Source of the DNA: Candidatus Latescibacterota bacterium
GTDB taxonomy: Bacteria > Latescibacterota > UBA2968
DNA length: 64,000 nucleotides
Assembly: GCA_965205975.1 (NCBI GenBank)
Contig: OZ242195.1
Span: 3,030,656 to 3,094,655 of the forward strand
Reading direction: 5' to 3'
Shown here: in pieces, positions 5,983-43,784 of the stretch
Layout of the letters: every line of letters begins with the position of its first letter
Numbering within the stretch: position 1 is the first letter of the stretch
Notes under the pieces: generated by a model
What the model was told of the DNA's origin: nothing
Seen by the model: only the letters and a program-made list of their open reading frames with translations
Databases searched by the model: none
Position numbers and translations under genes: made by a program

Positions 5983-8784
5983 CTATTCACTCAATTCGCG
6001 CAACAAATCGCGCGCCTGCACATTGCCCGGCTCTCGCGCAATCACGCGCCGCAAAACCGCAACCGCGCTATCTCGCTGTCCACTTATGGCATAAGCCTGT
6101 CCCATAAACAACTCCAATCCCTGCGCTTCTGGCTCCAGTATCCACGCTTGCCGATATACAGACAGCGCACCTTCTATATCGCCGCGCTCCTGTAAAACCG
6201 TACCCAGCACAGTAAGCGCGGGCACATAAAAAGGATCGACAATCAACGCATCCAGCAAAAGGGATTCCGCAGCCTCTAACTCGCCCAAATCAGCGCGAAT
6301 AAGCCCCTGCATCGCATACACATCAGCGCGGTTGGCATGGTATTTCACCGCAACCTCAAAATGCGGCAACGCATCTGCGAGCGCACCCCGCACATAAACG
6401 CGGTGCCCGGCGTCAAAAGCCGAATCCGATTTTGCTTTCCCCGCTTCTCGCGCCTGCCTGCCCAATCCAAACGATCCCGTACCCGCATCCTCCATTTCCA
6501 ACGCCCTGTGGTATGCCGCGCGCGCCAATGCCCAATCGCCCGACAGCGCGTGTGCAGTCCCTCTTTCCACCCAATCGCCTATCGGCATCTCATCCCACTC
6601 ATAATCATCGCGCACCTCGCCATCCCCAGCCGAAAACGCCAATAACGCGAGTTGTCGAATCGCTGGCACGTATCCCGGCGCAACAGCAAGTGCGCGGCGA
6701 TAGGCTTCAATAGCACCTGCGCGATCCCCACTGCCCCACCGCGCATCCCCCACAGCCGTCTGCAAAACCGGCGAACCATCGCGCACATCGTCAAAAGCCG
6801 TATCTGCATAGCGCCCATGGTGCAACAGCAATGCACCTGTGCGCAACCGGGAAGTCAAATCGCTCTTCCCCTTCAGCAAACCCCTCATCTCCTCAAAACG
6901 CTCCTGTTTTCGCGCCAATCGCGCCAGATCCGCCGCGGTCTCCGGGTGCAGGGGATCTAACTTCGCAACAATCTCAAATTCCCGCCTCGCATCTTCAAAA
7001 AGCCCCTGCGCTTCATAGACCTGCCCCAAACTCTCGTGAAAACCCGGATCATCGCCCTGCACGCCATACACCACATCGCGATGCTCCTCAAGTGCCCTGC
7101 GAAACGCATCGCCCACAGCAGAACCATCCGGCAAATAGCCAATATCCATCAGCGCGAACGGTGCTTGCACCCGCACAATACGCGCCGAATCGGACAACGC
7201 ATTCAAAAGCGCGGGCAAACCGCGCACATCGCCCAAACGCCCCAGCGAAATCGCCGCCTTCATCCGCACCATCGCATGTGAGTCATCCATCGCCTCAACC
7301 AGCGCCGGCACCACACGCGCATCCCCCAAACCGCCCAGCAAAGACGCAGCCGCTGCGCGCCACACCGCACTCTCACCCCCGTCGTTTACCAACCGCGCCA
7401 ACGGCACCACACCACTGCCCTTTTGCCCATTGGCAATCGCTGTTGTACGCGCCACAATTTCGTCCTGATAATCGCCATACCACTGCTTTGCCCACGACGA
7501 AGCCCATTGTGCGGACTTATCGCCGTGACACTGATTGCACGCATTGGGCACGCCATTGACCACCGTATTTTCCGGTGCAGGAGATGCAATGCGATGATCC
7601 GTCAGATTCTCTCCCGTCACATAGTGATACGGCATGTGACACTGCACGCATTGATTGCCCACACTCCCCGCGCGGTGATGCCCATGCGCGACCGGATCGG
7701 CTGCAATGTCTTCATGACACGTCTCGCACAACCCCACGCCATTCCGATCCGCCACCAGATCGACATCGCGCGCTGTTCCGTGCGCGTCGTGGCATGTCGT
7801 ACACGTCAACTCGCCCTGAATATAACACGCACTCATCAAATGCAATGCTGCGGGATACAAATAAACCCTGGGCTGTCCATCGGGATAAAAAATCGCCTCG
7901 TCATCTGGCAACACAAGAGAATAATAATCGTAAAAGTTCTCACCTGGCAAATACCCGGTCGCCACAATTTCCTTGGCCGCATGACACTGGGCACACACCT
8001 CGACAGACCGTTCCTTATCCAGCGACCGCAATAACAGCAAATGCAACGGGGCATTGACCTGTCCGCGCGTCTCATCGTGTTTGCCCGACGGCCCATGGCA
8101 CGCCTCGCAATCAATACTCAGACTACCCACAGTCGTGCGATAAGACTGGGACGCCACATCGTAATGCTTTTGCACCCGGCTGGCATGGCAATCAAAACAG
8201 TGAAAATTCCAGGTGCGTCCCGCATTCGTCCAATAATAATAATCTTCTCTCGCCAAAGGCCGCGACTGAGCCACCACACCTCCTTCTTGAGCATCGACCC
8301 AATCATTTGTCGCGCCATCGTGATACAGAGGCAACACCTGCCAACGCCCATTGGGAAAAGCCGTCAAATAAGCCTGGTGCTGCCGCTTGCCAATCGCGTA
8401 ATCCACGCGGTATGCTCCAACGCGCCCTTCCTCATCTTCAGTCTCCATATAATACGCACCATCCTTGCGAAACATACGCGAACGCACACCGCCATACACA
8501 TGGGACACATTGTCAAAATCGCCCACAATCGTCGAATCACTCGGCACAGTCATCGCGACACTGTGCAAACTCTGCCGCCACTCGGCATACTTGTCGGTAT
8601 GGCAGATCGCGCACCGTTCCAACCCGGTAAACCCCGGCTCAGAAGCGCGCACCAAATTGGGCACCTCGCGCTCCCGGCTGCACGACGCAAACACCAGAAT
8701 CACCCATAAAAAGCAACCACAGATGAACACCGATAAACACCGATAAAAAGCAAGATACAAGATGTGAAATTTTCTGCACCGCAT
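5983..8784 (-). CDS. Multiheme (8x CxxCH) c-type cytochrome lipoprotein fused to PBS-lyase HEAT-like repeats and a C-terminal TPR array.
   Basis: Lipobox LVFASC. CxxCH motifs CAICH, CFDCH, CEACH, CAQCH, CTTCH, CETCH, CVQCH and CNQCH. Then HEAT-like AMVRMKAAISLGRLGDVRGLPALLNALSD repeats, then multiple TPR-like repeats to the C-terminus. 933 aa. Confidence 0.65.
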   Translation of the reverse strand: MRCRKFHILYLAFYRCLSVFICGCFLWVILVFASCSREREVPNLVRASEPGFTGLERCAICHTDKYAEWRQSLHSVAMTVPSDSTIVGDFDNVSHVYGGVRSRMFRKDGAYYMETEDEEGRVGAYRVDYAIGKRQHQAYLTAFPNGRWQVLPLYHDGATNDWVDAQEGGVVAQSRPLAREDYYYWTNAGRTWNFHCFDCHASRVQKHYDVASQSYRTTVGSLSIDCEACHGPSGKHDETRGQVNAPLHLLLLRSLDKERSVEVCAQCHAAKEIVATGYLPGENFYDYYSLVLPDDEAIFYPDGQPRVYLYPAALHLMSACYIQGELTCTTCHDAHGTARDVDLVADRNGVGLCETCHEDIAADPVAHGHHRAGSVGNQCVQCHMPYHYVTGENLTDHRIASPAPENTVVNGVPNACNQCHGDKSAQWASSWAKQWYGDYQDEIVARTTAIANGQKGSGVVPLARLVNDGGESAVWRAAAASLLGGLGDARVVPALVEAMDDSHAMVRMKAAISLGRLGDVRGLPALLNALSDSARIVRVQAPFALMDIGYLPDGSAVGDAFRRALEEHRDVVYGVQGDDPGFHESLGQVYEAQGLFEDARREFEIVAKLDPLHPETAADLARLARKQERFEEMRGLLKGKSDLTSRLRTGALLLHHGRYADTAFDDVRDGSPVLQTAVGDARWGSGDRAGAIEAYRRALAVAPGYVPAIRQLALLAFSAGDGEVRDDYEWDEMPIGDWVERGTAHALSGDWALARAAYHRALEMEDAGTGSFGLGRQAREAGKAKSDSAFDAGHRVYVRGALADALPHFEVAVKYHANRADVYAMQGLIRADLGELEAAESLLLDALIVDPFYVPALTVLGTVLQERGDIEGALSVYRQAWILEPEAQGLELFMGQAYAISGQRDSAVAVLRRVIAREPGNVQARDLLRELSE

Positions 8785-8796
8785 AACACGTCCTGA

Positions 8797-9648
8797 CTAA
8801 CGCGCCTGTACCTCTCCCCGCGCACACCGAAACCCAATATGGGCAAATATTTCGATATCAAAATCGTCGCGCGCCAGAGCTCGCTCTTCCATAATTAAAA
8901 CCGTACTCCGCACAAATACGCGGATACTGGGTTGTGGTGAAAACCAACTCCCACCGCGAAGCGTGCGATCTGGCCCATCTTCCATACCCGAATTTTGCAA
9001 ATTCACCGGATTGTGCCTGGGGCTATTTGCGTAATACGTATGCTGGTATTCATCCACCGTCCACTCCCACACATTGCCCGCCATATCCATCGCGCCATAA
9101 GGACTTGCACCATCTGGATAGCTGCCCACAGGCATGGGACCCGAACTGAAATTGAAATTACACAGCGATTCACTCGCAGGCTCATTGCCCCAGGGAAACA
9201 CGCGCCCATCCGTACCTGCAGCGGCCAACTCCCACTGCGCTTCACTCGGCAATTGCAAACCCGCCCACAGGCAATAATCCCGCGCCTGAGACCACAAAAC
9301 CCCCACCGCTGGCTGATCGGCTTGATCAAACCCCTCTAATCGAAAGTACTGCGGCTCTTCACTTCCCGTAGCCTCCGCATAAGCCAAATACTGCGCGTTG
9401 GTCACCTCGTATTTATCGATATAAAATGCGTCGAGCATCACCTCGTGTGGCGGGCGCTCATTGGAGGGACCATCGCTCGACCCCATCGTAAAAGTGCTGG
9501 CCGGAACAAAAACCTGCACATGCTCCGTACCCGCAGGCGTGGTCACAACAGATTCTTCAACCACATACTCTGGATCGGTGGGCTTGCCACAGGCCATGGC
9601 CAATGCAATACCCAAAACGCCGAACCGATAAATCGTTTTTGGTATCAT
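8797..9648 (-). CDS. Formylglycine-generating enzyme family protein (SUMF1/FGE-sulfatase domain), lipoprotein.
   Basis: Lipobox LAMACG. FGE-domain signatures MGSSDGPSNERPPHEVMLDAFYIDKYEVTNAQYLAY, GNVWEWT and RGGSWFS. Confidence 0.7.
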   Translation of the reverse strand: MIPKTIYRFGVLGIALAMACGKPTDPEYVVEESVVTTPAGTEHVQVFVPASTFTMGSSDGPSNERPPHEVMLDAFYIDKYEVTNAQYLAYAEATGSEEPQYFRLEGFDQADQPAVGVLWSQARDYCLWAGLQLPSEAQWELAAAGTDGRVFPWGNEPASESLCNFNFSSGPMPVGSYPDGASPYGAMDMAGNVWEWTVDEYQHTYYANSPRHNPVNLQNSGMEDGPDRTLRGGSWFSPQPSIRVFVRSTVLIMEERALARDDFDIEIFAHIGFRCARGEVQAR

Positions 9649-9712
9649 TGCATTCTCCTGCGACAGGCGCGAATCAACGAATCTGCGAAAGCATTTGGGT
9701 GGCGGGGTGGGG

Positions 9713-9766
9713 TTCGTCTATTCTCTATTCGTCTATTCGTCTATTCGTCTATTCGTCTATTCGTCC
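9713..9766. repeat. Tandem octamer repeat (TTCGTCTA / CGAATAGA unit, about 6 copies) in the FGE-YcaO intergenic region.
   Basis: Directly visible as ggttcgtctattctctattcgtctattcgtctattcgtctattcgtcc. Same family as the repeats at 26229-26262 and 33379-33402. Confidence 0.9.
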
Positions 9767-9768
9767 TC

Positions 9769-10779
9769 TCACATCCAAACAATATAATTGCCCGAATCCA
9801 CCATAATGCGATGCACATACGTCTCGATCATCGCGTGGTCCCGCTCGTGTTCTGTAGTCTCTAAGCTAAAAGGCCGCAACACCGGAATCTGCATCTCTGG
9901 ATCTGTCCAATCTTGCACATAAACCGAAGATTTCATACCACTCAACACCACCTGAATATCGGTTATCAAATCATCCGTAAAATGATTGGGCAAATCCCAC
10001 AGTGCAATCTCGGCATTAAAAGTCTGCAAATCAGATACAAACCGCGTCTTGTGACTCTGAACAGTCTCATTAAACGCCCGCTGCAACGCGATGCGCCCAT
10101 CCAAATGCGTACACGTACGCACCAGAGGCCCCAAATCTTTGGGACACACCACCGCGTGAACCGTCGTCACCTTCTCATTCTCCCCCGGCACGGCCACAGC
10201 CAGCATCTTTTCTGCAACGCGAGGAGCAAAATCCGTCAAATTTGGATCGATAAACTGCCGGTGTTCCAATCCCGGCCAATAAAAATGCCTCCCCACATCC
10301 AGGTGTTCGTGCATCTCCAGCAAACCGTGAAACACGCACTCCAGCACAGTATTGCCCGCCGAAACGCCATTTGCCGAATCATTCAAATGCGGCACATCCG
10401 AAGCCTTCATATCGGTCGGCACAAGTTCGACATCAGAAGTCAACTCATAAATCGGAGTCTCTCGCCCGCTCGCCAGCGCGTCAAAAAACGAAATGCGCTC
10501 GACCGCCTCTGCCATCGCCCCCGCCAGCACCTGCTGTTTGGAAAGCCCTTTGCCCATCGTGCGAAGCGCGATACCCTCCATCAGCGGCCCTTCGTATTTG
10601 CGAAACAGCGCCGACTGCACGTAATCCGTATAACAATCGGCAATCCACACCGTATCGTAAAACCGCCGCGCGCGCGTTTGAAACCGACACTTCTTGGACA
10701 GCGCCTCCCCGAACCGCTCAATAGTCTCTTCAAACGGAACCGTGCGATCGGCAATAACGATATGATGCGACTCACTCAT
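9769..10779 (-). CDS. YcaO-domain protein (ATP-dependent peptide backbone-modifying / cyclodehydratase superfamily), short standalone form.
   Basis: Contains the canonical YcaO nucleotide-binding signature ...RTMGKGLSKQQVLAGAMAEAVERISFFDA... (GKG...A.AEA.ER). 336 aa. Overlaps the upstream TPR gene by 4 nt (ATGA coupling). Confidence 0.6.
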   Translation of the reverse strand: MSESHHIVIADRTVPFEETIERFGEALSKKCRFQTRARRFYDTVWIADCYTDYVQSALFRKYEGPLMEGIALRTMGKGLSKQQVLAGAMAEAVERISFFDALASGRETPIYELTSDVELVPTDMKASDVPHLNDSANGVSAGNTVLECVFHGLLEMHEHLDVGRHFYWPGLEHRQFIDPNLTDFAPRVAEKMLAVAVPGENEKVTTVHAVVCPKDLGPLVRTCTHLDGRIALQRAFNETVQSHKTRFVSDLQTFNAEIALWDLPNHFTDDLITDIQVVLSGMKSSVYVQDWTDPEMQIPVLRPFSLETTEHERDHAMIETYVHRIMVDSGNYIVWM

Positions 10780-11999
10780 TGCGCCCGTGCCCGATTCATA
10801 TCTTCAACCGCCTCGGCAAACCGTCCCATTTGCCGAAACGTCTCCGCGCGGAGTTCTCGTGCCCATCCATTTTCGGGATCGATATCCAACGCCCGCGTAA
10901 AATCTGAAACCGCTGCCTCATACTGCCCCAGCATCCGTCGGGACTCCCCGCGATTTGCCCAAACCCACGCATCACCATCATCCATCATCACCGCCCGATC
11001 AAAATCGATCAGCGACGCCTCGGGATCATTTTCCATCCGCAACGCGACGCCGCGCCCCATAAGCGCCCACAGATGATCGGGAAAATTCTCCAGCACCCGT
11101 GTAAAATCGCGTATTGCTTCGGCACTTCGCCCCAATTGCCGCAACATATCACCCCGCGCGGCCCACAAATCCGGATCACCAGGCGCGACGACGAGTGCGC
11201 GGTCAAAATCCAAAAGCGCATCCTCCAATTGACCGATCTCCCGCAGCACCTCGCCCCGCCCGATCAACGCGCCCAGATGATCGGGCATAGCCTTCAAAGC
11301 CTCCCCAAACATCTCCATCGCAGCCCCAGCTTCATCAGCCTGTCGATAGACCTCCGCCCGTCCGGCAAACGCATCCGGATGCCCATTGCCCACCGCAATC
11401 GCCCGATCAAAATCGCCCGCCGCCGCATCGAAATGCCCCAACTGCATCAGCACATGCCCGCGGCTGATCAGCGCGCCAAAATAATCTGCATCCAACGCCA
11501 AAACCCGATTGAGATCCCCCAGTGCCTCCTCAAACCGCCCCATCTCGCGCAGGGTCTCCCCCCGGCTGGCAAGTGCCTGCGTATTGTCCGGATCGAGCGC
11601 AACAGCCTTTCCAAAGCTATCTATCGCCGCATCAAAATGCCCCATCAACCCGCAGGCAATCGCGCGATTACTCCACACCCATGGATCGTCTGGCGCCAGA
11701 GCGATTGCGCGGTCAAAATCCGCAATCGCCGCATCAAATTGTCCCAATTGTCCATAAGTAATCCCGCGATGCACAAACACAACGGCATCGCTATCACACG
11801 CCGCAATCGCCGCATCAAAACCCGCAACAGCCGCTTTCAGATCGCCACCATCGCGGTGCGCGATGGCGCGCTGAACCACAGCTTCAAAGTCATTTATAGA
11901 TAGAGGCATAAAAGAAAAAGTGGGAACCGTCAGACACCCAAAACGTAAACACAATGTAGATAAACCAAACCCCAAAATCAAGCGCAAACCCCGTGACAT
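10776..11999 (-). CDS. TPR-repeat protein, translationally coupled to the YcaO gene.
   Basis: About 9 tandem 34-aa TPR units (A..G.....G.....A...F..A). N-terminal hydrophobic segment. Confidence 0.65.
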   Translation of the reverse strand: MSRGLRLILGFGLSTLCLRFGCLTVPTFSFMPLSINDFEAVVQRAIAHRDGGDLKAAVAGFDAAIAACDSDAVVFVHRGITYGQLGQFDAAIADFDRAIALAPDDPWVWSNRAIACGLMGHFDAAIDSFGKAVALDPDNTQALASRGETLREMGRFEEALGDLNRVLALDADYFGALISRGHVLMQLGHFDAAAGDFDRAIAVGNGHPDAFAGRAEVYRQADEAGAAMEMFGEALKAMPDHLGALIGRGEVLREIGQLEDALLDFDRALVVAPGDPDLWAARGDMLRQLGRSAEAIRDFTRVLENFPDHLWALMGRGVALRMENDPEASLIDFDRAVMMDDGDAWVWANRGESRRMLGQYEAAVSDFTRALDIDPENGWARELRAETFRQMGRFAEAVEDMNRARAQ

Positions 12000-12113: not shown

Positions 12114-13415
12114 ATGAAACATCTGTGTATTTTTTCTATCGCCCTATTTCTGTGCTTATGCACAACAGCTTTTGCCCAGCCCAATGTGGGTGAAAAAGTA
12201 GGTGAATTTCAGCTCCAGGCCCTCGACGGCAGATCTTACGGCGTCAGTCATTCGGCCAATACCGTCTCCGTCCTGTTTTTTGTAGGCTACAACTGAGGAA
12301 CTTGCATAGGGGCGGGTCCCGCCTTTGAAAGAGATGTTCACCAACGGAACAAAGACACAGCCGGCGTACAAGTTCTCACACTCGACAGATACAATGGCAA
12401 CCGCGCACAGGCGCAATCCTATCTGACACAAGCCAGAGTAACGACGCCCATGCTCACCAATGCCTCTGGCGTCTCCGCAACTCTCGGCACTCGCAACGAA
12501 GATATCCTGGTCGTTGACCAGGGAGGTATCCTACGCCTCAGAACCACGGCAATCGCCACCGGCTCTCATCACCTGATCAACGCGCAAATCGATGCACTAC
12601 TCAACAAAACGCCTGTTATTTCTCTATTCCCAAACGAGCTTTACTTTGGCAGAACCCTTGTCGTGGGGCAATCCAAAACCGTAGAGTTTAAGATCGAAAA
12701 CACCGGTGCAGGTCCCCTCGAAATCACCGGATACTCGGCTCCCGAAGGCATCACAATGGAGCCATCCACCCTGACCATAGCGCCCGGCGAAAGCAAAACC
12801 GTACAAATCACCCTGACGCCAACACAGGCCGGCACATTATCGGGTAAAATCACCCTCCAGCACGGCGAACAAAGTGTTGGCACACTGGAAGTCCCTTTTC
12901 TCGACCTCACCATCGAAGCGCCCCAACTCCCGGTCATTTCACTGATTCAGGAAAACTTGAGCCTGGGTGAAATCGAAGTGGGCAAAGACGTCACCACAAC
13001 ATTCACCATCACAAATACTGGCTCGGGTCCACTCACCATCACAGACATCCAATCCAACATCGCGGGCATTGCATTTTCAGAAACCCAATTAACAGTGCCA
13101 CCCGGTCAATCTCAAGACATCACCGTGACTTTCAGTCCGCCAGCCGAAGGGCCTATCACCGGCACCATCGACGTATTTTCAGACGACCCTGAAAAAGCCT
13201 CAATCAGTCTGACCATCACCGGATCGGCCATCTTCATCCCCGCTGATCCACGCACCGACTTCGACGGTTCGCGCACCATTAACTTCGCGGACTTCCTCTT
13301 GTTCGTAAGTGCCTTTGGCACGACCGATGCAACCTTCGATCTCAACGGGTCCGGCACTGTTGACTTTCCCGACTTTCTCATATTCGTCCAGAACTTTGGG
13401 AAAACAATCAACTAA
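12114..13415 (+). CDS. Candidate selenoprotein. Secreted TlpA/redoxin-like thiol-disulfide oxidoreductase with U-G-T-C in place of CxxC, fused to ASH/Ig-like repeats and a C-terminal dockerin.
   Basis: ATG at 12114 with a GGAGGA RBS. Signal peptide MKHLCIFSIALFLCLCTTAFAQ. Redoxin fold ...VLFFVGYN-TGA(12294-12296)-GTCIGAGPAFERDVHQRNKDTAGVQVLTLDRY.... The frame stays open through the single TGA into the listed ORF 12450..13415. A GC hairpin GGCGG-GUC-CCGCC lies about 14 nt downstream of the TGA. Three GxGPLxI Ig-like repeats. Two dockerin Ca-binding repeats DFDGSRTINFADFLLF / DLNGSGTVDFPDFLIF. Confidence 0.55.
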
Positions 13416-13477: not shown

Positions 13478-14179
13478 ATGTCCCACCGCCAAACGCTCAT
13501 CAACGCATTCAAACGCATCCTCGAAATATCGGATCACGACCATCTCTATTTGCCCTTTCAACGCGACAGCAAATTGCGGGCAAAACACTTTCCCGGCGCA
13601 GGGTCTAAAATCGGGCGAAAAAAACTCATCGACGCATATCTCCTTGAATTTGGCGACACAAACCCCGACGAAAAATTGCTCCAACACGCCACCTATCCCT
13701 GGATTCACGGGTACGACGCCAGCCTCACGCATATTCTCGATGACCTCCGAAAACACGAAAAAAAAGCACCCGCCGAACTTTCTACGGACCGAAGACGCGC
13801 ACTCGAAAAGAAATTTACCCGCACGGGTGCCGAAGAAATCTCTGCCTTCTGGAGCGTATATGCCGCCGCCGACAACAGCTATCGCAAAAGCGTCATAGAA
13901 ATGCTAGCCCGCGTCAAACCACCCGAAACGGCCCCCCCGACCGTTCAGCCTACACAAAAGCCCACAACTCGCGCCCCCTCTCAAATAGAACCCACCACAC
14001 AGTCGGGATATGCTTTGATGGGCGCGCTTATCTTCTTTGTCCCCACCTTTATATTTACTATAATACAATATTGGCGACTCCCAAATGAAAGCCACTATAT
14101 CGCCTTATCAATCGCCGGATTTTTTGGGATAGTCACACTCATCTTCCTCATCGACTACTTGCGTAAACGCAACACATGA
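13478..14179 (+). CDS. Hypothetical membrane protein (two C-terminal TM helices).
   Basis: 233-aa ORF with a Pro/Thr-rich linker and C-terminal hydrophobic helices ALMGALIFFVPTFIFTII and IALSIAGFFGIVTLIFLI. No recognisable family. Confidence 0.4.
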   Translation: MSHRQTLINAFKRILEISDHDHLYLPFQRDSKLRAKHFPGAGSKIGRKKLIDAYLLEFGDTNPDEKLLQHATYPWIHGYDASLTHILDDLRKHEKKAPAELSTDRRRALEKKFTRTGAEEISAFWSVYAAADNSYRKSVIEMLARVKPPETAPPTVQPTQKPTTRAPSQIEPTTQSGYALMGALIFFVPTFIFTIIQYWRLPNESHYIALSIAGFFGIVTLIFLIDYLRKRNT

Positions 14180-14261
14180 CCACAATGAACAAAGGCACCT
14201 ACCCCCGGCCCCTTCCTGAGAGGAAGGGGAGAAAACCTACCATCCCTCGCTTCTTGCCCTT

Positions 14262-14292
14262 CATCTGCGTCCATCTGCGTCATCTGCGGATA
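14262..14292. repeat. Tandem 9/10-mer repeat (CATCTGCGT)n ending in CATCTGCGGATA, immediately 5' of the ATG at 14293.
   Basis: tcatctgcgtccatctgcgtcatctgcggata. The same element recurs at 29235-29270, 36130-36172 and 63014-63052. Confidence 0.9.
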
Positions 14293-16071
14293 ATGATCTC
14301 CACCGTCCTCTTTCTCACCCTCCCGCTTCGCTCCTGGGCAGTTCCCCTTCAGATCGGCGACAGCCTCAATGATTTTGCCCTTGCCGACCTCAACGGCTCG
14401 TCCGTTACCCTCAGTGATTTATCTCAGAACCGCGCACTCGTCATCATCTTCAGTTCCGTCGTCTGCCCCGCCTCGCTAAAATACGACATACACCGCACAC
14501 AAATACACGAACAATATGCCCCCAGAGGTGTACACCTGATATCTGTAAATGCCAATTTTAACGAAACCGACAAAGACATCAAAGAACACTACGCCCAAAA
14601 CCCCGTACCCTTCGCTGTCCTGCGCGACCCGCACAACAAACTCGCCGATCATCTCGGCGCAACACATACCCCCCATGCCTTTCTCTTTGACGCCCAACGC
14701 CGCCTGCGCTACAAGGGCGAAATCGACAACGGCTGGGGCGTACCCGAAGACACGACCTCGCGCGGTTTATGGGACGCCCTCGATGCACTGCTCGCCAACC
14801 GCGAAATTATCAACACCAACCTGCCCAGTTTTGGCTGTGAAATCAGACGCACACCCCGGCCAACAACTGTGGCGAACACCTCTACCCCAACATTTTATCG
14901 CGACATCTTGCCCCTGCTCCAAAACCGCTGCCAGAACTGCCATCGCCCTGGCGGTATCGGTCGCGTACCCTTTTTCGACTACACAGAAGTACTCGCCTGG
15001 GCCTATCAGATGCGCGACTCCATCGAAGCCCGCATCATGCCGCCCTGGAAAGCGCGCCCAGAATACGGCGACTTCAAAAATTCCCGCAGACTCACAGACG
15101 CCGAAATACACACCTTCGCGCAATGGGTCAACAGCGGCCTGCCAGAGGGCGATCCCTCCGACCAGCCCGAACCTCTCACATTTGCCAAAAGCTGGACCCT
15201 GGGCACGCCCGATCTGATCCTCGAACCCGAAGCACCCTATTCACTCGAAGCCGTGGGGCGCGATGAATACCGCTGCTTTGTCTTGCCCACAAAACAGGAC
15301 ACAGGCAACTACGTATCGGCTATTGAAGTCCTGCCCGGAGAACGCGAAGTCGTCCACCACGTCAGCGTGTACATAGACATCTCTGGCAAAGCGCGCCTGC
15401 AACAGAAAAACGCATCATCGCCGGGCTACCCTTGCTTTGGCGGAATTGGCGTGCCCATCTACGAATCCCTGGGCGGTTGGGCACCCGGCAACACCCCCTT
15501 TGTCCTTCCAGATGGCACAGGCCGCGATTTACCGCCCAACAGCGACATCATACTTCAGATCCACTATCACAAAATTGGTCGCGCCGTAAAAGATCACTCC
15601 CGACTGGGAATCTACTTTGCCAAAAAACCCGTCCAGAAACAGCTCAGAGAAGAAGCCATCAACAGCCGTTTGCTCTTCATTCCGCCCAACATCAAACGAC
15701 ACAGAGTAACCGGAGCAATCACCATCACCCGCGACCAGCACCTGCTCGGCATCTTGCCGCACATGCACCTGCTCGGCACAGAAATGAAAATAACCGCAAC
15801 CTATCCCGACGGCACACAACACCCCTTAATATGGGTTAAACCCTATGACTTCAACTGGCAAGAAACCTATGTGTACAAAACACCCGTCGCACTCCCGCGC
15901 GGTACCCGCATCGCGCTCGAAGCCTTTTACGACAACTCTGCCGACAACCCCCGAAATCCCAACAATCCACCCAGGCTGGTGCGATGGGGCGAAAAATCAA
16001 CCGATGAAATGTGTACCGCATTTCTCTATGTCACGCACGATGATGAAAATTTAGAAACAGGTAAGAAATGA
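14293..16071 (+). CDS. Secreted three-part fusion: AhpC/TSA-redoxin-like domain, c-type cytochrome (CxxCH, PSCyt1-like) domain, and PHM/DBH-like copper type II monooxygenase domain.
   Basis: Start chosen at MISTVLFLTLPLRSWA (signal peptide). The listed ORF start 14176 would read through the tandem repeat. Redoxin-like LNDFALADLNGSSVTLSDL...VIIFSSVVCPAS. Heme site CQNCHRPGG...IMPPW. Copper-site-like motifs VHHVSVY (HH), IHYH, LPHMHLLGTEMK (HxH) and STDEMC (Met ligand), arranged as in the PHM CuH/CuM sites. Confidence 0.55.
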   Translation: MISTVLFLTLPLRSWAVPLQIGDSLNDFALADLNGSSVTLSDLSQNRALVIIFSSVVCPASLKYDIHRTQIHEQYAPRGVHLISVNANFNETDKDIKEHYAQNPVPFAVLRDPHNKLADHLGATHTPHAFLFDAQRRLRYKGEIDNGWGVPEDTTSRGLWDALDALLANREIINTNLPSFGCEIRRTPRPTTVANTSTPTFYRDILPLLQNRCQNCHRPGGIGRVPFFDYTEVLAWAYQMRDSIEARIMPPWKARPEYGDFKNSRRLTDAEIHTFAQWVNSGLPEGDPSDQPEPLTFAKSWTLGTPDLILEPEAPYSLEAVGRDEYRCFVLPTKQDTGNYVSAIEVLPGEREVVHHVSVYIDISGKARLQQKNASSPGYPCFGGIGVPIYESLGGWAPGNTPFVLPDGTGRDLPPNSDIILQIHYHKIGRAVKDHSRLGIYFAKKPVQKQLREEAINSRLLFIPPNIKRHRVTGAITITRDQHLLGILPHMHLLGTEMKITATYPDGTQHPLIWVKPYDFNWQETYVYKTPVALPRGTRIALEAFYDNSADNPRNPNNPPRLVRWGEKSTDEMCTAFLYVTHDDENLETGKK

Positions 16072-16072
16072 C

Positions 16073-17668
16073 ATGAAAAAATTCCTCAAGCTCAGCATCC
16101 TGATAACCCTGATCCACGCGCCTATCTACGCCCAATGGAACATCGCCGTATTGCCACATGAAAACACACTGGGCGATCCGCAGTGGAATTGGCTCTCCGC
16201 AGCCATTGTCGAAGGATATATCAACGCCTATTACCATGTACCGAAAATACATGCCGTTGACGAAGAATATCTGCGCCACAAACTCGGAGACACGCCAGTA
16301 AGTTCCTCTGATCTCGCACAAAAATTAGACATCCACCTGATTTTAAGTGGGCGTTACGACATTGCGGGAGGGCGCATCCAAATCGAAACCGACATGCTTC
16401 ATACAACCACAGGCGAAGTCATCGAAACCTTTACAGGTCAGGCATCCACCTCTACGCCGCTCGACGCCATATTGCCCGTACTCTACGCCATTGCAGATCG
16501 GTTAAACGCGACCCTGACACCCCATGAAAAAACCCGCCTGCAAATCCCCATGTTTCACGATCCACAAGCGCTTCACATCGCAACCGAAAGCATGGTGGCA
16601 CTGTATCGGGCACTGCGACAATCTCCCATTGACGACACGCTACTTACACAGGCTGAAGGCGGTCTAAAACGCGCCGTGCAACGCGATGCCAAAAGCGCGA
16701 TGCCCCATTATTATCTCGGGCGCATACACGAAACGCGCAACAAAATATCAGAAGCGGAAAACGCCTATCGCAACGCCCTCAAAATCGACTTTGAACACGT
16801 TGCAGCGCGCTATCGCCTATCTCTGCTCCTCAAAAAGCGCGGACACACAGAAGAAGCCATGAACGAACTCGAACAAGCCCTCCAGCAGTCGCCCATAAAC
16901 CCCGATATTCAGGCAGCCCTATCCAGCATGTTTTTCAATCAATACGCTCAAACCTTTGAAACAATCACCTCACAACTTCGCCAGGCCATCCAGGCCAATC
17001 CCGATGACCCCATTGCCTGTTATGAATTGGCCAATGCCTATAACGAACTCGACCGCATCGACGAAGCCACAAACTATTACCATCAAGCCCTACAACGCGA
17101 TTCCACATTCGCCGATGCACACTTCAAACTCGGCCTGATTGCACACCGCAAAGGGGAACACGAAAAAGCCGTTGACCAACTTCAAAAAGCCGCAGCGCAC
17201 AACACCCAATTCACCCGCGTCCATTTTCGCCTCGGCACCATCCTCTACCTCATCGAGCGCTATGACGCAGCGATCAAAGCCTTTTCAAAAGCCATCGAAG
17301 TCGAACCCAATTACGTCATCCCGCGCTATCACCTCGGCCTGAGCTATCTCGCAAACGCGCAGACAGACAGTGCTTATGAAGCCTTTCAGAAATACGCAGA
17401 ACTCACCTCAGACGATCACCGCCCGTATTTCCAAATGGCCGAGATTGCACGGCAAAAAGGAGAAACCGAACGCGCAATTAACGGATATATGCGCGCAATC
17501 GCCATCAGCCCTGTCCACGTACCGTCACACCTCCGTCTGGGCTATCTCCATGCCGAGCACCAGCGCTTTGACCTCGCTGTCCAGCAACTGCAAACCGCGC
17601 TGCGCCTGCAACCCGATCATCCGGATGCCAAAAAAATCCTCGCCGACATCCAGAAATGGACACCGTGA
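16073..17668 (+). CDS. Secreted TPR-repeat protein.
   Basis: Signal peptide MKKFLKLSILITLIHAPIYAQ. Multiple TPR units (AYRNALKIDFEHVAARYRLSLLLKKRGHTEEA etc.). Confidence 0.6.
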   Translation: MKKFLKLSILITLIHAPIYAQWNIAVLPHENTLGDPQWNWLSAAIVEGYINAYYHVPKIHAVDEEYLRHKLGDTPVSSSDLAQKLDIHLILSGRYDIAGGRIQIETDMLHTTTGEVIETFTGQASTSTPLDAILPVLYAIADRLNATLTPHEKTRLQIPMFHDPQALHIATESMVALYRALRQSPIDDTLLTQAEGGLKRAVQRDAKSAMPHYYLGRIHETRNKISEAENAYRNALKIDFEHVAARYRLSLLLKKRGHTEEAMNELEQALQQSPINPDIQAALSSMFFNQYAQTFETITSQLRQAIQANPDDPIACYELANAYNELDRIDEATNYYHQALQRDSTFADAHFKLGLIAHRKGEHEKAVDQLQKAAAHNTQFTRVHFRLGTILYLIERYDAAIKAFSKAIEVEPNYVIPRYHLGLSYLANAQTDSAYEAFQKYAELTSDDHRPYFQMAEIARQKGETERAINGYMRAIAISPVHVPSHLRLGYLHAEHQRFDLAVQQLQTALRLQPDHPDAKKILADIQKWTP

Positions 17669-18378
17669 ACCTCCTTAAAAAATGCAGTGCCGAATTTATC
17701 GGCGCATTTGCCATCGTCTTTGGCGGATGCGGGGCCATTGCCATCAACCAGCTATCCGAAGGCGCCATCACCCACGTGGGTATTGCAACATCCTTTGGCC
17801 TCATCGTCATGACAATGGTCTATGCCACCGGGCACATCTCGGGCGCGCACTTCAACCCCGCTGTCACCACCGCCTTTGCCTTCACCCGCCACTTTCCCAA
17901 ACGCGAAATTCTGCCCTACATCGCAGCGCAATGTCTCGGAGCCATCGCCGCCAGCGGCATTCACCTCTGGTCTCTCACACCCATCTTAAAAGCAAAACAC
18001 CCGCAGCAAATCCTCAACCTGGGTGTCACACAACCGATGGATAACCTTTTTGCCACAGCTTTCATCTGGGAATTCTTGCTCACCTTCTTCTTAATGCTCG
18101 TCATCATGGCCGTTGCCACAGACTACCGCGCCACGGGTCAAGCCGCCGGCCTGGCCATTGGCGGCACCATCTGGTTTGAAGCCATGTTTGCCGGTCCGCT
18201 CTCTGGTGCCTCCATGAACCCAGCGCGCAGCCTTGGTCCCGCTCTGGCTGCTGGCGATTGGACCCATTTCTCCGCTTACGTACTCGGCCCCATTCTCGGC
18301 GCAACTGCAGGCGCGTTTTTTTACGAATTCATCCGCTGCCATTCCGACCCCGGCACAGACGCCAAAGGTTGTTGTTAA
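17656..18378 (+). CDS. MIP-family channel (aquaporin/aquaglyceroporin). Candidate arsenite channel, given the adjacent arsC.
   Basis: Two NPA boxes (GAHFNPAVT and GASMNPARS), six predicted TM helices, 240 aa. Confidence 0.85.
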   Translation: MDTVNLLKKCSAEFIGAFAIVFGGCGAIAINQLSEGAITHVGIATSFGLIVMTMVYATGHISGAHFNPAVTTAFAFTRHFPKREILPYIAAQCLGAIAASGIHLWSLTPILKAKHPQQILNLGVTQPMDNLFATAFIWEFLLTFFLMLVIMAVATDYRATGQAAGLAIGGTIWFEAMFAGPLSGASMNPARSLGPALAAGDWTHFSAYVLGPILGATAGAFFYEFIRCHSDPGTDAKGCC

Positions 18379-18396
18379 TCCATAGAAAACCATCCC

Positions 18397-18819
18397 ATGA
18401 ACCGCGTACTCATCCTCTGCACGGGCAACTCCTGCCGCAGCCAAATGGCACAAGGGCTATTTAGCCATCTGAGCAATGGCACTTACGACGCCTATAGCGC
18501 AGGCGTCAGCCCCACAACAGTCAACCCACTGGCCATTCGCGCCATGCGTGAAATCGGCATCGACATATCCCACCACACATCCGACAGCATCGACCTCTAT
18601 CTCAATCGAGACTTTGATCTCGTCATCACCGTTTGCGACAATGCCAAAGAAAATTGTCCGATCTTTCCGGGCGCCAAAAACACGCGACATTGGCCCTTTG
18701 AAGACCCCGCTGATGCCCAGGGCACAGAAGAAGAGCGCATGCGCGTATTTCGCAAAGTGCGCGACCAAATACGCGATAAAATCGCAAACTTCCTCCACAT
18801 AAAAAAAGCCTCGAAATAA
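18397..18819 (+). CDS. arsC: Arsenate reductase, LMW-PTPase family (thioredoxin-coupled ArsC).
   Basis: CTGNSCRSQMA P-loop at the N-terminus, then ...VITVCDNAKENCP... and a C-terminal ...WPFEDPA...GTEEE... pattern. These match Bacillus-type ArsC. 140 aa. Confidence 0.8.
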   Translation: MNRVLILCTGNSCRSQMAQGLFSHLSNGTYDAYSAGVSPTTVNPLAIRAMREIGIDISHHTSDSIDLYLNRDFDLVITVCDNAKENCPIFPGAKNTRHWPFEDPADAQGTEEERMRVFRKVRDQIRDKIANFLHIKKASK

Positions 18820-37354: not shown

Positions 37355-37513
37355 CTATCTCCTCAAACAAGGTCCTCTGATAACTCATTAACTGACATTA
37401 CGCATATATCGCCTGTCATCCCCATTTCATAGGCATGACAAGATATAGCGTTGCTGCGTAAGGTCAAATATATATTTTCGGAATCACCGTCGAAAACATG
37501 AGAAGTATAAACC

Positions 37514-37548
37514 AAAAAACCACGCCCAAAGGACGTGGTTTTTTATTT
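37514..37548. terminator. Bidirectional rho-independent terminator (A6-CCACGCCCAAAGGACGTGG-T6).
   Basis: GC stem with one mismatch, flanked by an A-run and a T-run. It sits just outside the left end of the IS element. Confidence 0.5.
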
Positions 37549-37619
37549 ATGAACTTGACCTGTTTTAGTTGATAACAGAATTAAACCCACTGGTCGAGTC
37601 CAAAAAGTTCTGTAAAATA

Positions 37620-38878: not shown

Positions 38879-39363
38879 GGTGACTTTTTTTCCTTTTTAC
38901 AGAAATTTAAGGACGCTATCTCCACTTCGTTGATCATGCGATAAACCACATCTCCAGATTTGTTGCGATCATAAAAACTCAATGGCAACTGGATCAAGTG
39001 GTCGAAAAGATGGCTCCTTATATCCAGCATCATGCGATTGTTTATCCAAGCAAATAGATAGTTTGAGCAAAAACCAATGATGATATTGCCGACTGTAACG
39101 CCCAGGAGCAGAAGCAAAATAAATATCAACAGCTCATAATCTTCATTTGGAAAAACATCATCAATGATAATTTTCATGATATAGGGAAAAGCCAACGAGC
39201 TAACAGTCCCCAGGATCATGAGAACAAAAACAATGCTTTGGTGTATCCAATAAGGTTTCAGAAATTTCAAGAAATGATAAAAGACATGTCCCTGCTTAGA
39301 GAGATTGAAAATGGCTGATATGACTGGTTGTTTGTTCTTCATATTCACCCGTGATGTAAACAA
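38875..39363 (-). pseudogene. Truncated ABC exporter gene. Only the N-terminal transmembrane domain fragment remains, and the reading frame runs into the IS256 right end.
   Basis: MKNKQPVISAIFNLSKQGHVFYHFLKFLKPYWIHQSIVFVLMILGTVSSLAFPYIMKIIIDDV...LPLSFYDRNKSGDVVYRMINEVE is the first about 150 aa of a type-I ABC exporter TMD. The TAG stop is formed by the IS terminal sequence ...GGAGCTAC. No ATPase domain follows. Confidence 0.7.
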
Positions 39364-39384
39364 CTCAAAGTGTGCGTATGCATA

Positions 39385-39572
39385 AGACGCTCTTTGCTCG
39401 ATAAGCTCAAGTAAACCATTCTCTCAAGCTCATATTCCCAAATGCTTGAGCTTTGAACTGTTGCCTGCCCGCGCCGTCGCACGGCAGGCAGGTCTGCCGC
39501 CAATATTCGACTTGCCAGGGTCTGTCGGCGGCTTTTTATATTTAGAAATCCGGACAAATAGATAACCGCGTA
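39385..39572. repeat. About 190-bp structured repeat, copy 1 of 3 (other copies at 43785-43993 and a shorter one at 51245-51354).
   Basis: Near-identical sequence cttgata(g/a)gctcaagtaaa(a)ccattctctca(a/g)gctca(t/c)attcccaaatgcttgagctttgaactg + ttgcctgcccgcg(c/t)cgtcgcacggcaggcagg + tctgccgccaatattcgacttgccagggtctgtcggcggcttttt. It contains GCTCAAG/CTTGAGC pairing segments, a long GC hairpin and a terminal hairpin followed by a T-run. Confidence 0.85.
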
Positions 39573-42074: not shown

Positions 42075-42124
42075 TGGTTACCCTTGGCAATCAAGAGACG
42101 CTTGATCTCAGCTAACTTTCGCCA

Positions 42125-43219: not shown

Positions 43220-43556
43220 GAGGATAATCCTTTCTTATCGTTGGCTCGGTGCCCCCAGTCTGTTTACCGAGAACACCAAGCCAATCTTGAGCCTATCAAG
43301 CTCGGTTGCACACTTTTTTCTATGATTAAGATCAGCAATTAAGAGTACACCTAAAGCTCACTCAGAAGAAAGAAGCCAGTCTAAAGTTCATAGAAAAGAA
43401 AAATGATCGAATTCACTTGAGATAGAACTTTTGCCCAGAGATGTGTGGGTATCTGTCAATCCAGGCGACTTCGATTCTTTTTATGAATTAGCAATACCTT
43501 AGACTGAATGATGGGTAGCTAAAGATGCTCTCAAGCATCAGAGATTCCAGCGCTAA

Positions 43557-43766: not shown

Positions 43767-43784
43767 AGTATCACCTCCTTTCCT

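What the first reader, a model, noticed from the sequence alone, without database searches (positions are those of the whole stretch)
14293..16071. Secreted fusion of a redoxin-like domain, a heme-c domain and a PHM/DBH-like copper monooxygenase domain
The C-terminal 300 aa carry the paired-copper site pattern of peptidylglycine alpha-hydroxylating monooxygenase (HH ... H, then HxH ... M in an EMC context). That fold is rare in bacteria.

It is fused downstream of a single-Cys redoxin domain (SVVCPAS) and a planctomycete-type c-type cytochrome module (CQNCH...MPPW). In other words, a built-in electron-donor chain for a copper monooxygenase.

Together with the adjacent Sec-TlpA/dockerin protein, this suggests an extracytoplasmic oxidative peptide/protein-modifying or redox-sensing apparatus.
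Basis: partly seen in the sequence, partly recalled or inferred. Interest (0 to 1): 0.65.

Follow-up and report, generated by a model that had tools for sequence, protein, structure and literature searches.

The report
Bacterial heme-wired PHM-like copper monooxygenase
This gene encodes a secreted bacterial relative of the animal copper enzymes that make amidated peptide hormones and noradrenaline, fused to its own heme and thiol-redox modules; the family is large, conserved and apparently unstudied, but it is not rare.

Summary
Window 14293-16071 (+) encodes a 592-aa exported protein with three domains. The first is a thioredoxin-fold redoxin of the PRX_like1 type, with SxxCP plus a second invariant Cys. 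The second is a mono-heme cytochrome c (CQNCH...MPPW). The third is a two-lobed PHM/DBH-type copper monooxygenase.

All six copper ligands align to the PHM ligands and are 97-100% conserved in 273 homologous domains. The AF2 model (pLDDT 92.7) matches PHM and DBH crystal structures.

The claim that the fold is rare in bacteria is wrong. The copper domain alone finds 10,529 cluster representatives and at least 594 places in species-representative genomes. These come from Latescibacterota (the source lineage), Planctomycetota, Armatimonadota, Acidobacteriota and others.

The cytochrome is an almost obligatory partner of the copper domain. The redoxin is fused at either end, encoded as an adjacent gene, or absent.

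The conserved neighbour is the downstream TPR gene, which is fused to the enzyme in some relatives. The selenocysteine redoxin gene upstream is syntenic only in close relatives.

PHM's peptidylglycine-anchoring residues are replaced by hydrophobic ones, so the substrate is not peptidyl-glycine.

Best reading: a self-sufficient periplasmic copper monooxygenase reduced through its own heme. The substrate is unknown.

The parts
14293..16071 (+). Whole gene: 592-aa exported redoxin / cytochrome c / PHM-type copper monooxygenase fusion (TGA stop at 16069-16071)
   Evidence: ORF. Pfam domains. AF2 model with pLDDT 92.7 and pTM 0.88. 96% identical protein in Latescibacterota MAG OZ244847.1.
14293..14340 (+). 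Sec-type signal peptide MISTVLFLTLPLRSWA, with predicted cleavage after SWA
   Evidence: Read directly from the sequence. Homologues begin at the equivalent position with similar hydrophobic N-termini. Export is needed for covalent heme c attachment (established knowledge).
14341..14862 (+). Thioredoxin-fold redoxin domain (residues ~17-190) of the PRX_like1 type. Motif S55-V-V-C58-P59, cis-Pro T126-P127, second invariant Cys C182 in PSFGCEIR.
   Evidence: Pfam AhpC-TSA 48.6 bits and Redoxin 47 bits. PDB sequence hits 3u5r at E 5e-18, 2ywi at 4e-15, 2cvb at 2e-10. Foldseek TM(target) 0.80-0.83 to the same entries. C58 and C182 each present in 180 of 186 domains, with the rest mostly gaps; position 55 is never Cys.
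14881..15192 (+). Mono-heme c-type cytochrome module (residues ~197-300): C213-Q-N-C216-H217 heme-binding site and invariant M249-P-P-W, the candidate axial Met
   Evidence: CxxCH and MPP are conserved in every non-gapped sequence of 255 domains. Only weak Pfam hits: Haem_bd E 0.002, Cytochrome_CBB3 E 0.014, Cytochrom_C E 0.023. Helical in the model.
15193..15627 (+). Copper monooxygenase N lobe (CuH site): H355, H356, H424, plus conserved Y326 and Q422 (equivalent to PHM Y79 and Q170)
   Evidence: Pfam Cu2_monooxygen E 4.6e-5, 24 bits, below the gathering score of 30. Profile alignment to PHM puts vvHHv on TVHHM and vlQvHy on VLQVHY. H355 265/273, H356 267/273, H424 269/273.
15628..16047 (+). 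Copper monooxygenase C lobe (CuM site): H490, H492, M573 in a DEMC context. The positions of PHM R240/N316/Y318 hold L488/T575/F577.
   Evidence: Pfam Cu2_monoox_C 33.5 bits against a gathering score of 23. PHMHLLG aligns to VHTHHLG and DEMC to DEMC. H490 267, H492 266, M573 265 of 273. Position 488 is T/L/M/A/I/F and never Arg among the listed residues; position 575 is I/L/F/V.
16073..17668 (+). Downstream partner gene: exported 531-aa protein with an uncharacterised N-terminal domain (~residues 22-170; a source names one orthologue 'TolB-like') and TPR repeats. It starts 1 nt after the enzyme's stop codon.
   Evidence: TPR Pfam hits. No Pfam hit for the N-terminal 176 aa. The same gene directly follows the enzyme in L001, L008, L009, in the marine relative L002/L003 and beside P0029, in otherwise different contexts. 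The C-terminal TPR tail fused to the enzyme in P0015 aligns to residues 265-529 at E 2e-30. Full-length orthologues are limited to about 26 clusters.

Best explanation
The gene encodes a periplasmic, self-sufficient member of the PHM/DBH class of non-coupled two-copper monooxygenases.

Proposed mechanism:
- O2 is activated at the His2Met CuM site (H490, H492, M573) and a C-H bond of a bound substrate is hydroxylated.
- The second electron is held on the His3 CuH site (H355, H356, H424).
- Animals reduce these enzymes with ascorbate. Here the coppers are re-reduced one electron at a time by the covalently fused His/Met c-type cytochrome (C213xxC216H217, M249).
- The N-terminal PRX_like1 redoxin domain carries two invariant cysteines (C58 and C182). 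It most likely supplies or gates the two electrons needed per turnover as a dithiol/disulfide couple, itself recharged by the envelope's reducing pathways.

Substrate: it is not peptidyl-glycine, because the carboxylate-anchoring residues of PHM are replaced by hydrophobic residues. In the Latescibacterota clade the translationally coupled, sometimes fused, TPR protein is the likely substrate-recruiting or scaffolding partner.

Shown: architecture, fold, ligand identity and conservation, export signal, and the fusion/fission pattern.
Inferred: metal loading, direction of electron flow, the role of the thiols, and the substrate class.
For: Fold and family:
- Pfam domain hits.
- AF2 model with pLDDT 92.7 and pTM 0.88.
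- Foldseek to PHM (1phm, 1opm, 1sdw) and DBH (4zel) at E about 1e-14, TM(target) 0.60-0.70 for PHM.
- Family profile against PDB PHM at E 2.5e-9, with all six ligands in register plus Y79 and Q170 equivalents.

Selection on the sites: the ligands, CxxCH, MPP and both redoxin cysteines are 97-100% conserved in 273, 255 and 186 domains. They are invariant in a 111-sequence alignment down to 39% identity.

The heme is an obligate partner: 134 of 147 diverse representatives have cytochrome c immediately N-terminal to the copper domain. Most of the other 13 look like fragments.

The redoxin is functionally coupled:
- 61 of 147 representatives are N-terminal fusions and 2 are C-terminal fusions.
- 12 loci carry a separate redoxin gene with its own signal peptide next to the cytochrome-copper gene, often with overlapping stop/start.

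Self-sufficiency: no other neighbour is conserved across 87 loci.

TPR link.

Precedents:
- A bacterial c-type cytochrome domain reduces copper LPMOs, with less H2O2 leakage than ascorbate (PMC8981238).
- A cell-envelope peroxiredoxin is among the substrates of the DsbD-type electron transporter ScsB (PMC3322552, abstract).
- The C-terminal Cys of the PRX_like1 structure 2ywi has been read as a resolving cysteine (PMC3091736).
Against: - No experiment and no metal-containing model. The tools return no coordinates, so the heme-CuH distance, Cu-Cu distance and C58-C182 distance could not be measured.
- The redoxin lacks the CxxC dithiol; position -3 is S/G/A/D. Converting a two-electron thiol couple into one-electron heme reduction without a flavin is unusual.
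- About 45% of representatives lack the redoxin domain, so it is not essential to the core chemistry.
- The Pfam N-lobe model scores below its gathering threshold.
- No cytochrome Pfam model reaches its threshold.
- The TPR partner is restricted to one clade.
Confidence: 0.6

Rival explanations
1. O2-dependent periplasmic thiol oxidase. Electrons from substrate or protein thiols enter at the redoxin cysteines, pass through the heme to the two coppers, and are dumped on O2. No organic substrate is hydroxylated. The system would make disulfides or sense thiol redox state.
For: Two invariant cysteines sit in a thioredoxin fold. Thiol to heme c to copper to O2 is thermodynamically downhill (established knowledge). 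No substrate-related gene is conserved nearby. The gene is mostly stand-alone.
Against: About 45% of family representatives have no redoxin domain yet keep heme and both copper sites intact. The complete His2Met CuM site and the Y79 and Q170 equivalents of a C-H-activating enzyme are conserved. A hydrophobic pocket replaces the PHM anchor residues instead of decaying. Paralogue expansion within genomes (tandem copies in L026, L035, L051) fits substrate diversification better.
Confidence: 0.15
2. The redoxin domain is a peroxide-handling (peroxiredoxin-like) guard or gate, not an electron donor. It removes H2O2 leaking from uncoupled copper turnover, or controls a peroxide shunt. The heme receives electrons from a separate soluble periplasmic cytochrome.
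For: The conserved Cys lies at the position of the peroxidatic Cys, followed by Pro, and the best Pfam hit is AhpC-TSA. A C-terminal putative resolving Cys is conserved. Cytochrome-driven LPMO reduction is known to lower H2O2 damage, which shows peroxide is a real hazard for copper monooxygenases.
Against: The peroxiredoxin catalytic context is not kept. Position -3 is S/G/A/D rather than a fixed Thr/Ser, and there is no Pro at -7. The PRX-like subfamily is described as lacking the other residues of the triad and as mechanistically unclear (PMC3514251). A used peroxidase would still need a reductant in the periplasm.
Confidence: 0.15
3. The redoxin domain is a metallation or maturation module in the manner of Sco/TlpA. 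It would hold Cu(I) between C58 and C182 for insertion into CuH/CuM, or keep the CxxCH cysteines reduced for heme attachment.
For: Thioredoxin-fold proteins such as Sco and TlpA serve copper-site assembly, and ResA/CcmG serve heme attachment (established knowledge). The weak NCBIfam hits are to ResA and DsbE. Two invariant cysteines with no CxxC are compatible with a metal site.
Against: Maturation factors are normally separate and substoichiometric, not fused in one polypeptide in most lineages. No His or Met partner typical of Sco or PCuAC is conserved in the domain. The closest structures are PRX_like1 proteins at E 5e-18, not ResA at 7e-7. No Sco model hit was reported.
Confidence: 0.07
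4. The copper-monooxygenase-like region is a non-catalytic beta-sandwich binding module, and the motif match is fortuitous.
For: The PHM/PNGase F beta-sandwich fold also occurs without copper (own knowledge). The Pfam N-lobe score is below threshold.
Against: All six ligand positions are kept in at least 97% of 273 domains spanning many phyla. They are in register with PHM. The domain always travels with a redox cofactor domain.
Confidence: 0.03

Closest known systems
Peptidylglycine alpha-hydroxylating monooxygenase (PHM, catalytic core of PAM; PDB 1PHM/1OPM/1SDW)
   Same: Two beta-sandwich lobes. CuH = His,His,His and CuM = His,His,Met in the same local motifs (VHH, QVHY, HxH-LG, DEMC). The Y79 and Q170 equivalents are kept.
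   Different: About 18% identity. R240/N316/Y318, which hold the peptidyl-glycine carboxylate (own knowledge of the PHM structures), are L/T/F here and hydrophobic family-wide. Only 3 Cys in the copper domain against five disulfides in PHM (own knowledge). Fused to heme c and a redoxin. Bacterial and periplasmic. No PAL partner.
Dopamine beta-hydroxylase, tyramine beta-monooxygenase and MOXD1 (PDB 4ZEL)
   Same: Same catalytic core fold and ligand set (Foldseek E 2e-14). Multidomain enzymes with an accessory N-terminal domain.
   Different: DBH carries a DOMON domain and a dimerisation domain and uses ascorbate (PMC12164859). Here the accessory domains are a cytochrome c and a thioredoxin fold. 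DBH was not reached by the sequence profile.
c-type cytochrome domain CjX183 of Cellvibrio japonicus Cbp2D, which reduces copper LPMOs
   Same: A small bacterial extracytoplasmic c-type cytochrome acts as the one-electron donor to a copper monooxygenase in place of ascorbate (PMC8981238).
   Different: The acceptor there is a mononuclear histidine-brace LPMO on a separate polypeptide. Here the donor is covalently fused to a two-copper PHM-type enzyme. No homology was tested.
PRX_like1 thioredoxin-fold proteins (PDB 3U5R from S. meliloti, 2YWI from G. kaustophilus, 2CVB/2YWO from T. thermophilus)
   Same: Best sequence and structure matches of the N-terminal domain, including the C-P motif and the C-terminal P-x-x-G-C-x-I-[KR] motif. 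3U5R also has SxxC.
   Different: Those are stand-alone proteins of unknown function, and 2CVB and 2YWI keep CxxC. Here the domain is wired to heme and copper domains.
BURP-domain copper peptide cyclases (AhyBURP)
   Same: Another non-animal enzyme with PHM-like paired copper sites acting on peptides (review PMC12164859).
   Different: A plant enzyme with a different fold family and autocatalytic on its own core peptides. There is no heme or redoxin. Not compared here by any tool.

Membership tests
PHM/DBH copper type II monooxygenases (Pfam PF01082 + PF03712) | Two-lobed beta-sandwich catalytic core | tested here: met
   AF2 model. Foldseek to about 35 PHM entries and DBH 4zel at E 1e-12 to 6e-15, TM(target) 0.59-0.70 over about 300 columns.
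PHM/DBH copper type II monooxygenases (Pfam PF01082 + PF03712) | C-lobe HMM (PF03712) above the gathering score | tested here: met
   33.5 bits against 23, E 3.6e-8, residues 461-579.
PHM/DBH copper type II monooxygenases (Pfam PF01082 + PF03712) | N-lobe HMM (PF01082) above the gathering score | tested here: inconclusive
   24 bits against 30, E 4.6e-5. The family profile nevertheless aligns the N lobe to PHM residues 22-201 at E 2e-8, and several homologues carry a precomputed PF01082 hit.
PHM/DBH copper type II monooxygenases (Pfam PF01082 + PF03712) | CuH ligands: three His (PHM H107, H108, H172) | tested here: met
   H355, H356 and H424 align to them and are conserved in 265-269 of 273 domains.
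PHM/DBH copper type II monooxygenases (Pfam PF01082 + PF03712) | CuM ligands: His, His, Met (PHM H242, H244, M314) | tested here: met
   H490, H492 and M573 align to them and are conserved in 265-267 of 273 domains.
PHM/DBH copper type II monooxygenases (Pfam PF01082 + PF03712) | Two copper ions bound about 11 A apart across a solvent cleft | not testable with these tools
   The model has no metals and its coordinates are not returned. Needs a metal-loaded structure or inspection of the model.
PHM/DBH copper type II monooxygenases (Pfam PF01082 + PF03712) | Ascorbate as the physiological reductant | not testable with these tools
   Biochemical property. The obligatory fused cytochrome c argues for a different donor.
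PHM proper (peptidyl-glycine specificity) | Carboxylate and backbone anchor R240, N316, Y318 | tested here: not met
   The aligned positions are L488, T575 and F577. Family-wide they are T/L/M/A/I/F, I/L/F/V and mostly F.
Class I c-type cytochrome | CxxCH heme attachment site, a distal Met and an export signal | tested here: met
   C213xxC216H217 and M249PP are invariant. Signal peptide present. Actual heme ligation is not testable here.
Planctomycete cytochrome C domain PSCyt1 (PF07635) | Match to the Pfam model | tested here: not met
   Residues 190-306 scanned at E<=10 gave only Haem_bd (0.002), Cytochrome_CBB3 (0.014), Cytochrom_C (0.023) and PccH, all below their cut-offs. The motif-level resemblance (CxxCH...MPP...W) is recalled from memory only.
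Thioredoxin-fold redoxins (AhpC-TSA/Redoxin; PRX_like1 subgroup) | Thioredoxin fold with cis-Pro loop | tested here: met
   AhpC-TSA 48.6 bits and Redoxin 47 bits, both above cut-off. TM(target) 0.80-0.83 to 3u5r, 2cvb and 2ywi. T126-P127 conserved.
Thioredoxin-fold redoxins (AhpC-TSA/Redoxin; PRX_like1 subgroup) | CxxC dithiol motif | tested here: not met
   S55-V-V-C58. Position 55 is S/G/A/D/N and never Cys in 186 domains.
Peroxiredoxins | Pxxx(T/S)xxC active-site context with fixed Thr/Ser (and catalytic Arg) | tested here: not met
   Position -3 is variable (S 99, G 60, A 11, D 6). Position -7 is Ile, not Pro (sequence). The Arg was not assessed. PRX-like proteins are described as lacking the other residues of the triad (PMC3514251).
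Thioredoxin-fold redoxins (AhpC-TSA/Redoxin; PRX_like1 subgroup) | Conserved C-terminal Cys (putative resolving Cys) in a P-x-x-G-C-x-I-[KR] motif | tested here: met
   C182 is present in 180 of 186 domains and the other 6 are gaps. The same motif is in 3u5r, 2ywi and 2cvb. It is read as a resolving Cys in PMC3091736. Its proximity to C58 is not testable here.

The most novel reading that the evidence does not exclude
This family is the first ascorbate-independent class of PHM-type enzymes. Two electrons from a cysteine pair would be metered through a covalently attached heme c into CuH/CuM. In the Latescibacterota clade a dedicated TPR partner would present periplasmic peptides or proteins for C-H hydroxylation. 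That would be a bacterial counterpart of eukaryotic peptide-hormone tailoring chemistry, with an internal, triggerable electron-transfer wire.
Probability: 0.2. Interest if true: 0.8.

Novelty: new variant of a known kind. Interest (0 to 1): 0.55.

Why it matters
PHM and DBH are treated in metalloproteome surveys as eukaryote-only cuproenzymes (table in PMC7435645). How the electron crosses from CuH to CuM is still debated (review PMC12164859).

This large bacterial family has a heme donor fused in cis. It should be expressible in bacteria, and its heme gives an optical handle and a way to trigger single-electron delivery. That would make the electron-transfer question more directly testable.

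It also shows how bacteria without ascorbate can run this chemistry. It flags thousands of proteins now labelled only 'redoxin domain-containing protein' or 'peroxiredoxin' as probable copper monooxygenases with unknown, probably hydrophobic, substrates. These occur in Planctomycetota, Armatimonadota, Acidobacteriota, Verrucomicrobiota, Latescibacterota and Poribacteria.

Tried and rejected
Literature: nine searches found no paper on a bacterial PHM/DBH-type enzyme or on this fusion. Several queries were noisy and the library is incomplete, so absence is weak evidence.

Sequence searches that fell short:
- A single-sequence phmmer of the C-terminal 302 aa against the PDB found nothing meaningful. 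Only the family profile reached PHM.
- A Pfam scan of the heme module found no PSCyt1 hit.

Neighbourhood clustering over 87 loci found no conserved partner other than the split redoxin gene and, in one clade, the TPR gene.

Considered and rejected:
- A functional link to the upstream YcaO-like/TPR genes, the FGE-domain gene, the hypothetical 233-aa gene or the selenoprotein gene. They are syntenic only in close relatives.
- An interdomain C328-C574 disulfide. P0058 has C328 but Ala at 574, and P0075 has His at 328 but C574, so the two cysteines occur independently.
- Start at the upstream ATG 14176. Homologues start at the 14293 equivalent.

An Rfam scan around the TGA found no SECIS family.
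Full report
**1. The observation**

The ORF covering the reported coordinates runs 14176-16071.
- It yields a Sec-type signal peptide (MISTVLFLTLPLRSWA|VP).
- Homologues start at the equivalent position.

The 592-aa product has these Pfam hits:
- AhpC-TSA/Redoxin, residues 21-147, E about 1e-12.
- Cu2_monoox_C, residues 461-579, 33.5 bits against a gathering score of 23.
- Cu2_monooxygen (N lobe), residues 324-428, 24 bits, below the gathering score of 30, E 4.6e-5.

Between the redoxin and copper regions lies C213-Q-N-C-H217 ... M249-P-P-W. All motif coordinates were re-read from the DNA.

**2. Is the copper-enzyme resemblance real?**

- An AF2 model built on a 111-sequence alignment is confident: pLDDT 92.7, pTM 0.88.
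- Foldseek against the PDB returns about 35 PHM entries and human DBH (4zel) at E 1e-12 to 6e-15 over about 300 columns. TM-scores on the PHM targets are 0.59-0.70.
- Single-sequence phmmer does not reach PHM.
- A profile of 20 C-terminal regions does, at E 2.5e-9. The alignment puts H355/H356 on H107/H108, H424 on H172, H490/H492 on H242/H244 and M573 on M314.
- The same local contexts are kept (VHH, QVHY, HxH-LG, DEMC). The Y79 and Q170 equivalents are also kept.
- Across 273 homologous copper domains each ligand is present in 265-269, and nearly all the remainder are gaps.

PHM's peptidyl-glycine anchor is not conserved. The identities of R240, N316 and Y318 are from my own knowledge of the PHM structures.
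- The aligned residues here are L488, T575 and F577.
- Family-wide these positions are hydrophobic.
- The enzyme therefore works like PHM/DBH at the metal sites but is not a peptidyl-glycine hydroxylase.

**3. The other two modules**

*Redoxin domain*
- Its best matches are the stand-alone structural-genomics proteins 3u5r, 2ywi and 2cvb. Sequence E values run from 5e-18 to 2e-10, and TM(target) is 0.80-0.83.
- By my recollection of CDD, these are the 'PRX_like1' group.
- The motif is S-x-x-C58-P. The first Cys of the CxxC seen in 2cvb and 2ywi is never present in 186 family domains.
- A second Cys, C182 in P-S-F-G-C-E-I-R, is as conserved as C58. It occurs in the same motif in the PDB relatives.
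- Others have read that C-terminal Cys of 2ywi as a resolving cysteine (PMC3091736).
- The mechanism of PRX-like proteins is described as unclear (PMC3514251).
- So 'single-Cys redoxin' should read 'two conserved cysteines, no CxxC'.

*Heme module*
- It has an invariant CxxCH and an invariant MPP(W).
- It gets only weak generic cytochrome c Pfam hits and no PSCyt1 hit.

**4. How common, and in what forms**

- The source is a Latescibacterota bacterium. The window is about 95% identical in DNA to OZ244847.1.
- The copper domain alone finds 10,529 representatives of 50%-identity clusters at E<=1e-3, 6,346 at E<=1e-10 and 1,888 at E<=1e-30.
They come from Planctomycetota (including cultured Tundrisphaera), Armatimonadota, Poribacteria, Acidobacteriota, Verrucomicrobiota, Rokubacteria/Methylomirabilota and others.
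- Sources label these proteins 'redoxin domain-containing protein' or 'peroxiredoxin/mono/diheme cytochrome c family protein'.
- The fold is therefore not rare in bacteria.

Architectures among the best 147 representatives:

| Architecture | Count |
|---|---|
| cytochrome c - copper | 67 |
| redoxin - cytochrome c - copper | 61 |
| cytochrome c - copper - redoxin (permuted) | 2 |
| duplicated or tandem arrangements | 4 |
| copper only (mostly apparent fragments) | 13 |

In 12 loci the redoxin is a separate gene with its own signal peptide, directly abutting the cytochrome-copper gene. The stop and start often overlap.

The cytochrome is thus essentially obligatory. The redoxin is a recurrent, independently fused or split partner, which is classic evidence of functional coupling. 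It is also dispensable in about half of the family.

**5. Neighbourhood**

*Downstream TPR gene*
- The gene 16073-17668 starts 1 nt after the stop codon. It encodes an exported protein with an unassigned N-terminal domain and TPR repeats.
- The same gene follows the enzyme in the close relatives L001, L008 and L009.
- It also follows the enzyme in the marine relatives L002/L003 (enzyme 57% identical) and beside P0029 (54%). The surroundings there are otherwise different.
- In P0014, P0015, P0022 and P0033 a TPR tail is fused to the enzyme. The P0015 tail aligns to residues 265-529 of the window's TPR protein at E 2e-30, including the non-repeat ends.
- Full-length orthologues of the TPR protein are few, about 26 clusters. 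Several have the same longest-contig length as an enzyme orthologue, which suggests shared contigs.
- Planctomycetota and Armatimonadota homologues lack it and share no other neighbour.

*Upstream 'Sec-TlpA/dockerin' gene*
- It is real: 12114-13415 is one frame with an in-frame TGA in FFVGYN-U-GTC.
- The TGA is conserved in three relatives and is followed by a conserved hairpin.
- With U read as C, the N-terminus passes the AhpC-TSA threshold.
- It is syntenic only within the close Latescibacterota group. A functional link to the target is therefore not supported.

**6. Mechanism**

*Shown*
- An exported protein with a PHM-type two-copper scaffold under strong purifying selection.
- It is always accompanied by a c-type heme site and frequently by a two-Cys thioredoxin fold.

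*Inferred*
- The heme replaces ascorbate as the one-electron reductant of CuH/CuM. The precedent is the bacterial cytochrome domain CjX183, which reduces copper LPMOs (PMC8981238).
- The C58/C182 pair supplies or gates the two electrons needed per turnover.
- The pair would be recharged by envelope reducing systems. A DsbD-type transporter that serves a periplasmic peroxiredoxin is known (PMC3322552, abstract).
- The substrate is a hydrophobic or non-carboxylate C-H donor.
- In this clade the TPR partner recruits the substrate.

*Rivals*
- A thiol oxidase that only reduces O2.
- A peroxide-guard role for the redoxin.
- A metallation or maturation role for the redoxin.
- A non-catalytic beta-sandwich.

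They are weighed in the rival list. None is excluded except, largely, the last.

**7. Novelty and verdict**

- I found no publication on this family in nine searches of the held library. Several queries were noisy.
- A metalloproteome review tabulates PHM and DBM as eukaryote-only cuproproteins (PMC7435645).
- The family is visible in databases under generic names, so this is not a new fold or a new kind of chemistry.
- It is a distinct, uncharacterised, heme-wired bacterial variant of the PHM/DBH class.
- This gene is an ordinary member of that variant family.
- Interest is moderate to good. The main reason is that a bacterial enzyme with an internal heme donor could make the PHM electron-transfer problem experimentally tractable.

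**8. Limits**

- No model coordinates were available, so no metal geometry could be checked.
- The substrate is unknown.
- The direction of electron flow is untested.

Noticed in passing
window 12114-13415 (+), TGA at 12294-12296: The upstream gene is a probable selenoprotein: signal peptide, redoxin domain with a U-G-T-C motif (in-frame TGA), two choice-of-anchor D/HYDIN-type Ig domains and a dockerin-like tail. The TGA, the motif and a GC-rich hairpin starting 13 nt downstream are conserved in L008, L009 and L001. With U read as C the N-terminus scores AhpC-TSA 28 bits against a cut-off of 26. ORF callers split it in two. No tRNA-Sec in the window and no Rfam SECIS hit.
   Followed up: partly
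window 1-36000 (also L008): Extreme strand asymmetry. GC skew is about -0.24 and AT skew about +0.12 over 36 kb, reaching -0.30 in 2-kb bins, across genes on both strands. Amino-acid composition looks visibly different between + strand and - strand genes. The 95%-identical relative L008 shows the same (-0.22), while L001 and L009 show about half as much. Most large ORFs are on the - strand.
   Followed up: partly
window ~36000-56000: Composition break: GC falls from 0.54 to 0.46 and skew falls to about -0.09. At the boundary sits a Mutator-family (IS256-like) transposase (37640-38824, -). It is followed by two tandem copies of a MacB/FtsX-type permease plus 6-bladed beta-propeller gene pair (39573-43219 and 43994-47652, -). 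This is probably an acquired island.
   Followed up: partly
window 5983-11999 (-): A run of extracytoplasmic-looking genes on the opposite strand: a 933-aa multiheme cytochrome (paired CXXCH, c7 and c552-like) fused to HEAT and TPR repeats; an FGE-sulfatase-domain protein (8797-9648); a short YcaO-like protein (9769-10779) overlapping a 407-aa TPR protein (10776-11999). The YcaO/TPR pair is also present in L001, but this block is not linked to the target outside close relatives.
   Followed up: partly
window 17656-18819 (+): A MIP-family channel gene overlaps the 3' end of the TPR gene by 13 nt and is followed by a low-molecular-weight phosphatase/ArsC-like gene. This pair is absent at the equivalent place in L001.
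   Followed up: no
loci L026, L035, L051, L015; proteins P0121, P0125, P0131, P0203: Paralogue expansion and rearrangement in the family: tandem gene copies, internally duplicated proteins (1064 and 1251 aa), and two representatives with the redoxin at the C-terminus instead of the N-terminus.
   Followed up: partly
window residues H426 and C574 of the target (15568-15570, 16012-16014): Two extra conserved residues sit next to copper ligands and have no PHM counterpart role that I know of. The first is a second His in the H424-Y-H426 motif (230 of 273). The second is the Cys after the Met ligand (DEM-C, 178 of 273). Its PHM disulfide partner (C293, from my own knowledge of PHM) has no counterpart among the copper domain's three cysteines, C328, C381 and C574.
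   Followed up: no
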